DNA from: the human T2T-CHM13v2.0 reference genome, Homo sapiens
Strand: one strand, 5' to 3'
Length of the DNA: 64,000 bases
Assembly: GCF_009914755.1 (NCBI RefSeq)
Contig: NC_060929.1
Position numbers and translations under genes: made by a program. Below the pieces are notes generated by a model. That model was not told where the DNA came from and searched no databases. It was given only the letters and a program-made list of their open reading frames with translations. This document shows positions 41,023 through 41,730 of the stretch, piece after piece (position 1 is the first letter of the stretch; each line of letters starts with the position of its first letter).

Positions 41023-41240
41023 TGCCATGGTCCTGCAATAGAACACCTCCAACCAACACCAGCAGGTGTACTCCAGTCTCATCCTCAGGTTGTCCAGCTA
41101 AAAGGGGAGTAATCTGCAGGTGCTAATATAAGTGCAATGCTCCTATAGGAGCTCCTGTAGTATCTTTGCAAAGATGTAGGGACCAACTGTGTACAGTCCA
41201 TCTTCTAGTTCACAATAAAGCACTGGTCTTTCCAAGTGAC
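41023..41240 (-). pseudogene. Processed ABCG8-like fragment (ABC2 transmembrane region), decayed
   Basis: Reads [50 protein letters not shown]...WLEVFYCRTMA versus recalled ABCG8 [51 protein letters not shown]...WLVVFCCRIMA; two stops, one deletion, no intron at AK|IL. Confidence 0.85.
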
Positions 41241-41730
41241 CTTGAATCTTAATCTGTGCACTATCCTGGCTTAGAGATGTGGATATCCCAGTGATACCAG
41301 GTTCTTATAGTTTTTCTTGTCTTTTCTTCTTTTTTGAGACAGAGTCTTGCTCTGTCGGCCAGGCTGGAGTGCAGTGGCATGCTCTTGGCTTGCTGCAACC
41401 TCCGCCTCCTGGGCTCAAGCAATTCTCCTTACTCAGCCTCCCAAGTAGCTGAGATTACAGATGTGTGCCACCACGCCCAGCTAATTTTTGAATTTTTCGT
41501 AGAGACAGGGTTTCACCATGTTGGTCATGCTGGTCTTGAACTCCTAACCTCAGGTAATCCGCCCGCCTAGGCCTTCCATCCTATAGTTTTTCAACACTAA
41601 ACCTCTGTGTATAGTCTTAGAAAAGTCCAGATATTCTCACATGTCCTGAGAGAAATCTACAGCCACATCCCTGAATTTCACTGATCCAGGGTCAATCTTC
41701 CTCAGTGTTTTCTTCTGGAAAAACACAGTC
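41241..41730 (-). pseudogene. Processed KRAB-A/B box fragment, split by an Alu (41317-41579)
   Basis: 41687-41581 reads GSVKFRDVAVDFSQDM*EYLDFSKTIHRGLVLKNY; after the Alu, KNLVSLGY then (1-nt shift) ISKP; A and B boxes contiguous with no intron. Confidence 0.85.
41317..41579 (-). mobile_element. 5'-truncated AluS inserted in the KRAB relic
   Basis: TSD C(T/C)TATAGTTTTTC at 41304-41316 and 41580-41592. Confidence 0.9.

What the first reader, a model, noticed from the sequence alone, without database searches (positions are those of the whole stretch)
41023..41730. Retrocopy relic of a KRAB-ABCG8 chimeric transcript inside a RAPGEF6 intron
Seen on the minus strand, after removing the Alu at 41317-41579 and one TSD copy: a pre-KRAB leader-like segment (DCVFPEENTEED), KRAB-A ([38 protein letters not shown]), a decayed KRAB-B start (ISKP...RL..QG), then directly [51 protein letters not shown]. 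The last part matches my recall of the ABCG8 sterol-transporter transmembrane region. There is no intron between KRAB-A and -B, which are normally separate exons. The ABCG8 similarity starts at GT (41240), and 77 nt later runs through AK|IL, matching my recall of one whole ABCG8 exon spliced to the next. The junction CAA G|GT CAC keeps QG in frame with ABCG8. Inference: a spliced KRAB-ABCG8 fusion mRNA once existed and was retrotransposed before the AluS insertion. It could have come from an extinct or lineage-specific chimeric gene, trans-splicing, or an RT template switch. I know of no KRAB plus ABC-transmembrane protein. Stops and frameshifts show this copy is dead.
Basis: partly seen in the sequence, partly recalled or inferred. 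Interest (0 to 1): 0.92.

Follow-up and report, generated by a model that had tools for sequence, protein, structure and literature searches.

The report
Dead KRAB–ABCG8 chimeric retrocopy relic
An intron of human RAPGEF6 holds a decayed, single-copy DNA copy of an old hybrid RNA that joined the start of a KRAB zinc-finger gene to two spliced exons of the sterol transporter ABCG8; it is a genomic fossil with no sign of function.

Summary
On the minus strand, once the Alu (41317-41578, 14-nt target-site duplication) is discounted, there are three cDNA-derived pieces.

- **KRAB-A:** a complete KRAB-A exon copy (Pfam KRAB 26.9 bits, cutoff 20.4). Its similarity starts and stops exactly at KZNF exon edges.
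- **KRAB-B:** the first ~46 nt of a KRAB-B exon follows with no intron.
- **ABCG8:** from 41240, the whole 77-nt ABCG8 exon is spliced precisely to the first ~149 nt of the next exon. The 662-nt intron is gone. The match covers aa 472-546, E 9e-14, with 73.7% nt identity.

The ABCG8 part begins on the first base of an exon and keeps the KRAB frame. That favours a spliced KRAB-ZNF/ABCG8 hybrid RNA that was reverse-transcribed.

- The copy stops mid-exon, with no poly(A) and no target-site duplication.
- It abuts, tail to tail, an internal fragment of an old L1 3' end (40848-41014, + strand). One later deletion explains this best.
- The "leader" has no detectable homologue.
- None of 76 human KRAB-B sites carries a GT donor at the junction.
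- No second copy and no KRAB inside the ABCG8 locus were found in the human genome.

This is a new example of a known kind (chimeric processed pseudogene). It is dead, and interest is low to moderate.

The parts
41688..41740 (-). Origin and 5' limit of the insert are undetermined.
   Evidence: It is not intron-like: there is no pyrimidine tract or AG before 41687 (compared with the KZNF introns). No homologue in the human genome beyond the site itself or in 22 KZNF loci.
41579..41687 (-). KRAB-A exon copy, first part. 41579-41592 is one copy of the Alu target-site duplication.
   Evidence: Pfam KRAB 26.9 bits, above the 20.4 cutoff. 11 KZNF KRAB-A exons match from 41687 on. The start GGATCAGTGA... 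matches the first bases of the L053 KRAB-A exon right after its ...tttcag acceptor.
41317..41578 (-). Later Alu insertion, 5'-truncated, with its A-rich tail at the low-coordinate end.
   Evidence: Flanked by a 14-nt direct repeat, 13 of 14 identical. Matches Alu copies in many fetched loci.
41287..41316 (-). KRAB-A exon copy, last part (…[10 protein letters not shown]). 41303-41316 is the second copy of the Alu target-site duplication.
   Evidence: 92% identical over 26 nt to the ends of the KRAB-A exons of L044 and L056, stopping at the exon end ...CTGG|gtaag.
41241..41286 (-). First ~46 nt of a KRAB-B exon (…SKP…QG). It is decayed, with small indels, and follows KRAB-A with no intron.
   Evidence: Local alignment to the L053 KRAB-B exon scores 25, reached by 2 of 500 shuffles. 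The same stretch against the ABCG8 upstream exon scores 13, reached by 179 of 500 shuffles.
41164..41240 (-). Copy of the whole 77-nt ABCG8 exon (aa 472-496).
   Evidence: 60 of 79 nt identical (this blastn alignment also includes the 2 nt before the exon). The alignment starts at the exon's first base, and the gene exon is bounded by ag| and |gt. PDB ABCG8 E 9e-14.
41024..41163 (-). Copy of the first ~149 nt of the next ABCG8 exon (aa 497-546). The intron is removed exactly and the copy ends in mid-exon.
   Evidence: Alignment. The gene exon continues at least to aa 576, so the similarity stops inside the exon.
41015..41023 (.). 9 nt of unassignable origin at the tail-to-tail junction.
   Evidence: Lies beyond the end of the ABCG8 alignment and beyond the end of the L1 profile match.
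40848..41014 (+). Internal fragment of an old L1 3' end, in the opposite orientation to the relic. It lacks its last ~120 nt and its poly(A).
   Evidence: At least 481 candidate copies in the genome; all 40 scored ones match. nhmmer E 7.5e-46 against positions 385-545 of a 665-position profile built from 12 copies; the rest of the profile is not found in 40000-43300. 85.5% identical to that consensus. The other copies run on to an A-rich 3' end.

Best explanation
This is a non-functional fossil of one reverse-transcription event.

Inferred origin: in a germ-line cell, probably of an early placental mammal, a hybrid RNA existed in which the 5' part of a KRAB zinc-finger transcript was joined to ABCG8. 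The KRAB part comprised upstream sequence, the KRAB-A exon and the first half of the KRAB-B exon. The join used the normal 3' splice site of the 77-nt ABCG8 exon, and the downstream ABCG8 exons were normally spliced. The join was most likely made by the spliceosome, either by trans-splicing or by aberrant cis-splicing from a cryptic donor in KRAB-B. The LINE-1 machinery then copied the RNA into an intron of RAPGEF6, on the same strand as that gene.

Inferred later events: a deletion removed the 3' part of the copy together with the 3' end of a neighbouring, convergently oriented L1. This left the two elements tail to tail. An Alu then landed in the KRAB-A part, and point mutations and indels destroyed the frame.

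Shown: the identity of the pieces, the two exact intron removals, the exon-edge start of the ABCG8 part, the in-frame join, the later Alu, the mid-exon 3' end next to the L1 fragment, and single-copy status in the human genome.

Inferred: splicing as the joining step, LINE-1 as the copying machinery, the deletion, and the age.
For: - Domain and gene identity.
- KRAB-A similarity begins and ends at KZNF exon edges and is followed directly by a KRAB-B start, while in L053 the two exons are 1.2 kb apart.
- The 77-nt ABCG8 exon and the next exon are joined with the 662-nt intron removed to the base.
- ABCG8 similarity starts on the first exon base. The 60 nt upstream do not resemble the preceding ABCG8 exon (score 13, reached by 179 of 500 shuffles) but do resemble KRAB-B (2 of 500). 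My own estimate: ABCG8 is recalled to have about 12 internal exon junctions in an mRNA of about 2.7 kb, so a random breakpoint within 1-2 nt of a junction is expected only about 1-2% of the time.
- The join keeps phase 1 on both sides (G|GT from KRAB-B Gly, against T|GT in ABCG8), read directly.
- The Alu target-site duplication lies inside KRAB-A, so the Alu is younger.
- Ages are similar and old. The ABCG8 part is 157/213 = 73.7% identical to the gene, K2P 0.334. KRAB-A is 72-74% identical to the best full-length KZNF exons. The L1 fragment has K2P 0.16 to its consensus.
- The L1 (sense on +) and the relic (sense on -) both lack their 3' ends and meet 3' end to 3' end. One deletion across two convergent insertions produces this geometry.
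- Precedent: Law & Burns (bioRxiv 10.1101/2025.02.02.635956; abstract and passages read) report retrotransposed chimeras whose junctions fall on splice sites, and propose trans-splicing.
Against: - No poly(A) tail and no target-site duplication for the relic were found, so L1-mediated insertion is inferred, not shown.
- The donor side is in mid-exon. Among 76 human KRAB-B sites matching the KPD....LEQG pattern, the Gly codon is GGT in 0 of 76, so no extant human KZNF has a canonical GT donor there. One synonymous change would create one, but that is conjecture.
- The retro sequence CAAGG|TCAC shares AGG with the ABCG8 intron/exon edge (ttttAG|GTTAC). This allows a microhomology-guided switch instead of splicing.
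- The middle of the KRAB-B segment aligns poorly to known KRAB-B exons.
- No KRAB sequence lies in C2:43860001-43900000 (best blastn E 0.13, best tblastn E 0.98), so a cis origin has no support in human.
- The deletion model cannot be tested without other species.
Confidence: 0.55

Rival explanations
1. Template switch during one retrotransposition event. The LINE-1 reverse transcriptase copied an ABCG8 RNA from the 3' side and jumped to a KRAB-ZNF mRNA, helped by a few bases of microhomology. No hybrid RNA ever existed.
For: - Chimeric retrocopies made by template switching are an established class (review PMC5470649, passages read; listing of PMC2104539).
- AGG is shared between KRAB-B (...CAAGG...) and the ABCG8 intron/exon edge.
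- There is no GT donor at this KRAB-B site in 0 of 76 human copies.
- The preceding ABCG8 exon ends with a 14-nt stretch identical to some KRAB-B exons, so the two RNAs are locally alike near the join.
Against: - The switch would have to fall on the exact first base of an exon by chance (about 1-2% by my estimate).
- If microhomology with the intron edge was used, the upstream intron had to be unspliced while the next intron was spliced.
- A switch inside the 14-nt shared stretch predicts about 16 nt between AAGCCA and the exon start, but 26 nt are seen. A splice after the Q-G motif predicts 25 nt.
Confidence: 0.27
2. Two independent events. A 5'-truncated ABCG8 processed pseudogene inserted into, or was joined by rearrangement to, an older KRAB-ZNF processed pseudogene.
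For: Both parent types produce retrocopies. The 3' side of the relic has clearly been rearranged, so this locus has suffered at least one further event.
Against: - Same orientation, an in-frame join, and truncation exactly at an exon start are each required by chance.
- No remainder of the KRAB-B or zinc-finger part lies downstream of the ABCG8 piece, and there is no internal poly(A) or target-site duplication.
- The two halves are about equally diverged from their parents.
Confidence: 0.08
3. The relic copies the mRNA of a real, heritable KRAB-ABCG8 fusion gene that existed in an ancestral mammal, for example KZNF 5' exons sitting in an ABCG8 intron, and was later lost.
For: The junction is in frame and uses the genuine ABCG8 acceptor. 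KZNF genes duplicate and move often (general knowledge).
Against: - No KRAB remnant in the 19.7 kb upstream of the exon or elsewhere in the 40 kb examined.
- No second ABCG8-like locus in the human genome.
- The predicted product, a KRAB domain plus the last part of a transmembrane domain without the ATP-binding domain, has no obvious way to work.
- An in-frame join has a 1 in 3 chance anyway.
Confidence: 0.05

Closest known systems
Retrocopies of intergenically spliced or read-through chimeric transcripts, such as hominoid PIPSL (named in the abstract of PMC6764479; its read-through origin is recalled)
   Same: An intronless DNA copy of an RNA that joins exons of two different genes at a splice site.
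   Different: PIPSL's parent genes are neighbours, both junction sides are annotated splice sites, and the copy is intact and expressed (recalled). Here no KRAB sequence was found in the 40 kb of the ABCG8 locus searched, the donor side is in mid-exon, and the copy is truncated and dead.
LINE-1 chimeric insertions with mRNA exons (Law & Burns, bioRxiv 10.1101/2025.02.02.635956; abstract and passages read)
   Same: Old retrotransposed chimeras whose junctions coincide with splice sites; trans-splicing is proposed as the cause.
   Different: Those join gene first exons to L1 in sense orientation and carry a target-site duplication and poly(A). Here two cellular mRNAs are joined. The adjacent L1 fragment is antisense and 3'-truncated, and probably unrelated to the event.
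Chimeric retrogenes made by reverse-transcriptase template switching (review PMC5470649, passages read; PMC2104539, listing only)
   Same: Bipartite or tripartite intronless copies of unrelated transcripts fused head to tail in the same orientation.
   Different: Nothing in a template-switch mechanism places the junction on an exon edge, and the whole insert is flanked by one target-site duplication with a poly(A) (recalled). Here the junction is on an exon edge, and neither target-site duplication nor poly(A) survives.
Ordinary processed pseudogene
   Same: Exact intron loss, a single parent locus elsewhere (ABCG8 on chromosome 2), and neutral decay.
   Different: It has two parents, only about 226 nt of ABCG8 (77 + 149 of the gene) is present, and there is no 3' UTR or poly(A).

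Membership tests
KRAB domain (Pfam PF01352) | Score at or above the Pfam gathering threshold. | tested here: met
   26.9 bits against a 20.4 cutoff, profile positions 1-36 of 42, on the 39 aa before the Alu with one stop read as X.
KRAB-ZNF transcript copy | KRAB-A and KRAB-B exons contiguous, with similarity bounded by the exon edges. | tested here: met
   The start at 41687 and the end at 41287 coincide with the exon edges of L053, L056 and L058. A KRAB-B-like start follows directly.
ABCG8-derived sequence | Specific similarity to ABCG8 rather than to other ABCG members. | tested here: met
   Only ABCG8 chains hit, at E about 9e-14; no other ABC transporter chain appears among the hits up to E 10. 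The only other genomic match is the ABCG8 gene.
ABC2_membrane (Pfam PF01061) | Score at or above the gathering threshold. | tested here: not met
   14.4 bits against a 26.9 cutoff, E 0.028. The fragment is short and decayed, so this says nothing against an ABCG8 origin.
LINE-1-mediated processed pseudogene | Introns removed exactly at exon junctions. | tested here: met
   The 662-nt ABCG8 intron is absent to the base. The KRAB-A/B intron is absent.
LINE-1-mediated processed pseudogene | 3' poly(A) tail. | tested here: not met
   The copy ends in mid-exon at about 41024 against an L1 fragment. The A-rich stretch at 40741-40782 is 69% A against a 55% background and is not contiguous with the copy.
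LINE-1-mediated processed pseudogene | Target-site duplications flanking the insert. | tested here: not met
   No flanking direct repeat apart from the Alu's own. The 11-nt repeat at 40874 and 41712 lies inside the L1 fragment and is probably chance.
Retrocopy of a spliced chimeric (read-through or trans-spliced) RNA | Acceptor side of the inter-gene junction lies at a genuine 3' splice site. | tested here: met
   ABCG8 similarity starts at the first exon base, after ...ttttttag| in the gene.
Retrocopy of a spliced chimeric (read-through or trans-spliced) RNA | Donor side of the junction lies at a 5' splice site (GT follows in the parent). | tested here: not met
   The junction is about 46 nt into KRAB-B. 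0 of 76 human KRAB-B sites have GT there. The true parent is unknown, so a parent-specific cryptic donor cannot be excluded.
Retrocopy of a read-through transcript | Parent genes adjacent in the genome. | tested here: not met
   No KRAB in C2:43860001-43900000. Only the present-day human locus, and only 40 kb of it, was examined.

The most novel reading that the evidence does not exclude
The relic is the only surviving trace of a heritable KRAB-ABCG8 fusion gene of an early placental mammal, with KZNF 5' exons resident in an ABCG8 intron and spliced in frame onto the last transmembrane exons. It would then not be the product of a one-off aberrant RNA.
Probability: 0.05. Interest if true: 0.55.

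Novelty: new member of a known kind. Interest (0 to 1): 0.25.

Why it matters
The relic fossilises an RNA-level join between two unrelated genes, using a genuine splice acceptor. It adds one old example to the small set of retrocopies that record chimeric, possibly trans-spliced, transcripts in the mammalian germ line. It has no coding capacity, no annotated function and no second copy. Its value is as a datable marker and a case for surveys of chimeric retrocopies, not as a new biological system.

Tried and rejected
- **Second copy or intron-containing parent in the human genome:** the DNA search found only the site itself. The six-frame protein search found the site and ABCG8.
- **KRAB remnant inside the ABCG8 locus:** none.
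- **L1 split by the insertion:** rejected. The missing 120 nt of the L1 3' end are not found anywhere in 40000-43300.
- **Twin priming or two-ended priming as the source of the L1/relic junction:** rejected on geometry. Those models put the 5' ends together, whereas here the 3'-truncated ends meet.
- **3' tail of the relic coming from the ABCG8 3' region:** no match of 40615-41023 to the locus.
- **40615-40847 as a high-copy repeat:** only one 67-nt A-rich hit.
- **The 46 nt before the junction as the preceding ABCG8 exon:** rejected.
- **Structured RNA in 39000-44000:** no Rfam match.
- **First KRAB-B pattern search:** I used the wrong spacing and got 1 match. It was redone.
- **Literature:** full-text searches for ABCG8 with KRAB or retrocopy, and for ABCG8 pseudogene, retrocopy, processed pseudogene, ABCG8P and ABCG8-like, found nothing relevant. 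Repeat-library and pseudogene-database annotation could not be consulted.

Full report
**What is there.** I read the minus strand of 40700-42100. An Alu occupies 41317-41578 and is flanked by a 14-nt direct repeat, 41303-41316 and 41579-41592, 13 of 14 identical. Discounting the Alu and one repeat copy gives a continuous reading (done in a script only).

**The KRAB half.**
- The 39 codons before the Alu, with one stop read as X, score 26.9 bits on Pfam KRAB against a cutoff of 20.4. They also match the ZNF93 KRAB chain at E 0.0055.
- A DNA search of the window's own genome with 41580-41900 gave 12 matches: the site itself and 11 KZNF KRAB-A exons, 10 on C19 and 1 on C7. All 11 begin at query positions 214-226, which is about 41687.
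- A six-frame search listed 100 KRAB-A matches.
- I inspected three of the fetched KZNF loci. The similarity begins on the first bases of the KRAB-A exon, right after the ...tttcag acceptor. It ends at the exon end ...CTGG|gtaag, which is 41287 in the window.
- The next 46 nt (41286-41241) align to the 5' part of the KRAB-B exon of L053, which lies 1.2 kb downstream of its KRAB-A exon. The score is 25 and is reached by 2 of 500 shuffles (4 of 500 with a slightly different window).
- So the KRAB-A/B intron is absent.
It is not intron-like. Its origin and the 5' end of the insert remain open.

**The ABCG8 half.**
- With stops read as X, 41289-41023 hits five ABCG8 sequences among solved structures at E about 9e-14, residues 472-546. 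Nothing else scores better than E 1.6.
- Pfam ABC2_membrane is only sub-threshold, 14.4 against 26.9 bits.
- In the genome, only the site itself and the ABCG8 gene on C2 match.
- I fetched 40 kb of that locus and aligned it.
- The gene has a 77-nt exon, ...ttttttag|GTTAC...GCCAAG|gtgac, then a 662-nt intron, then an exon starting ATCCTC....
- The copy matches the 77-nt exon from its first base (41240) and runs without the intron into the next exon.
- Overall identity is 157 of 213 aligned bases (73.7%, K2P 0.334), with several indels.
- The second exon encodes residues 497 to at least 576. The similarity stops at residue 546 (41024), so the copy ends in mid-exon.

**The junction between the halves.**
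- The 60 nt before 41240 do not resemble the preceding ABCG8 exon (score 13, reached by 179 of 500 shuffles). They do resemble KRAB-B.
- The join reads ...CAAG|GTCAC.... The G of the KRAB-B Gly codon plus GT of the ABCG8 exon gives phase 1 on both sides, because the native ABCG8 codon is T|GT. The join is therefore in frame; by chance that happens 1 time in 3.
- A breakpoint on the first base of an exon is what splicing predicts. By my estimate it is expected about 1-2% of the time for a random break.
- Against a simple splice: among 76 human KRAB-B sites matching the KPD....LEQG pattern (0 in the reversed-pattern control), the Gly codon is GGA, GGG or GGC and never GGT. No extant human copy has a canonical donor there.
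- The junction also shares AGG with the ABCG8 intron/exon edge, which would suit a microhomology-guided template switch.
- I therefore prefer a spliced hybrid RNA (0.55) over a reverse-transcriptase template switch (0.27). Two independent insertions (0.08) and a real fusion gene (0.05) trail.

- Downstream of 41024 on the minus strand there is no poly(A).
- After 9 unassignable bases, 41014-40848 is a fragment of an old L1 3' end lying in sense on the plus strand. The genome holds at least 481 candidate copies, and all 40 scored ones match.
- A profile of 12 copies matches the window at positions 385-545 of 665, E 7.5e-46. The remaining 120 positions and the A-rich tail, which are present in the other copies, are nowhere in 40000-43300.
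- The L1 and the relic thus both lack their 3' ends and meet 3' end to 3' end. Twin priming or two-ended priming would bring the 5' ends together.
- One deletion across two convergently oriented insertions gives exactly what is seen. This is inference.
- No target-site duplication for the relic was found.
- The A-rich sequence further down (40741-40782, 69% A against 55% background) is not convincing as a tail.
- 40615-40847 is essentially unique in the genome.

**Age and status.**
- KRAB-A is 72-74% identical to the best full-length KZNF exons.
- The ABCG8 part is 73.7% identical to the gene.
- The L1 fragment is 85.5% identical to its 12-copy consensus, K2P 0.16.
- With a neutral rate of roughly 2×10^-9 per site per year (recalled), these values point to many tens of millions of years, probably early in placental evolution. 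Only cross-species comparison can date it.
- The Alu is younger, because its target-site duplication lies inside KRAB-A.
- The copy carries stops and frameshifts. It lies on the same strand as its host gene RAPGEF6, between the exons at 31936-32113 and 43306-43437 in the hub's table. It has no RefSeq annotation and no Rfam match.

**Parent search.** There is no second copy and no intron-containing parent in the human genome. There is no KRAB remnant in C2:43860001-43900000, which includes 19.7 kb upstream of the 77-nt exon.

**Comparison with what is known.**
- Retrocopies of chimeric RNAs are an established kind. PIPSL is named as a fusion example in the abstract of PMC6764479.
- Chimeric retrocopies made by template switching are reviewed in PMC5470649 (passages read).
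- Law & Burns (bioRxiv 10.1101/2025.02.02.635956; abstract and passages read) describe L1/mRNA chimeras whose junctions fall on splice sites, and propose trans-splicing. That paper does not mention ABCG8 or RAPGEF6 in its main text.
- Full-text searches for ABCG8 with KRAB or retrocopy, and for ABCG8 pseudogene-type terms, found nothing relevant.
- So this particular relic appears undescribed in the searched library, but repeat and pseudogene databases could not be checked.

**Verdict.** This is a new member of a known kind, a dead single-copy chimeric processed pseudogene. It has no functional implication, and interest is low to moderate.

Noticed in passing
G000:C2 about 43879250-43879319 (ABCG8 exon preceding the 77-nt exon), compared with the KRAB-B sites listed: The preceding ABCG8 exon ends ...GATGTCATCTCCAAAT (LDVISKC). 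It shares a 14-nt identical stretch with some human KRAB-B exons (KPDVISK, e.g. the C5:151434634 hit). The two RNAs are therefore locally alike just upstream of the point where they are joined in the relic. This could be coincidence or an aid to a template switch. The spacing in the relic fits a join after the Q-G motif better.
   Followed up: partly
window 40304-40665: A second Alu on the minus strand with a long A tail. It is flanked by a direct repeat TTTCAAACTCTG visible in the sequence.
   Followed up: no
window 40850-40927: The first ~70-80 nt of the L1 fragment match several loci (e.g. L014, L015, L020, L021, L030) at 86-92% identity, while full-length matches are only 72-78%. This suggests a younger repeat family shares this segment.
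   Followed up: no
window 40874-40884 and 41712-41722: An exact 11-nt direct repeat, CTTCTGGAAAA. One copy is inside the L1 fragment and the other is just upstream of the KRAB-A copy. It is probably chance, and it is not at the element boundaries.
   Followed up: partly
window 41023-41740, minus strand: The relic lies in the same transcriptional orientation as its host gene RAPGEF6, according to the hub's table. No exonisation is annotated.
   Followed up: no
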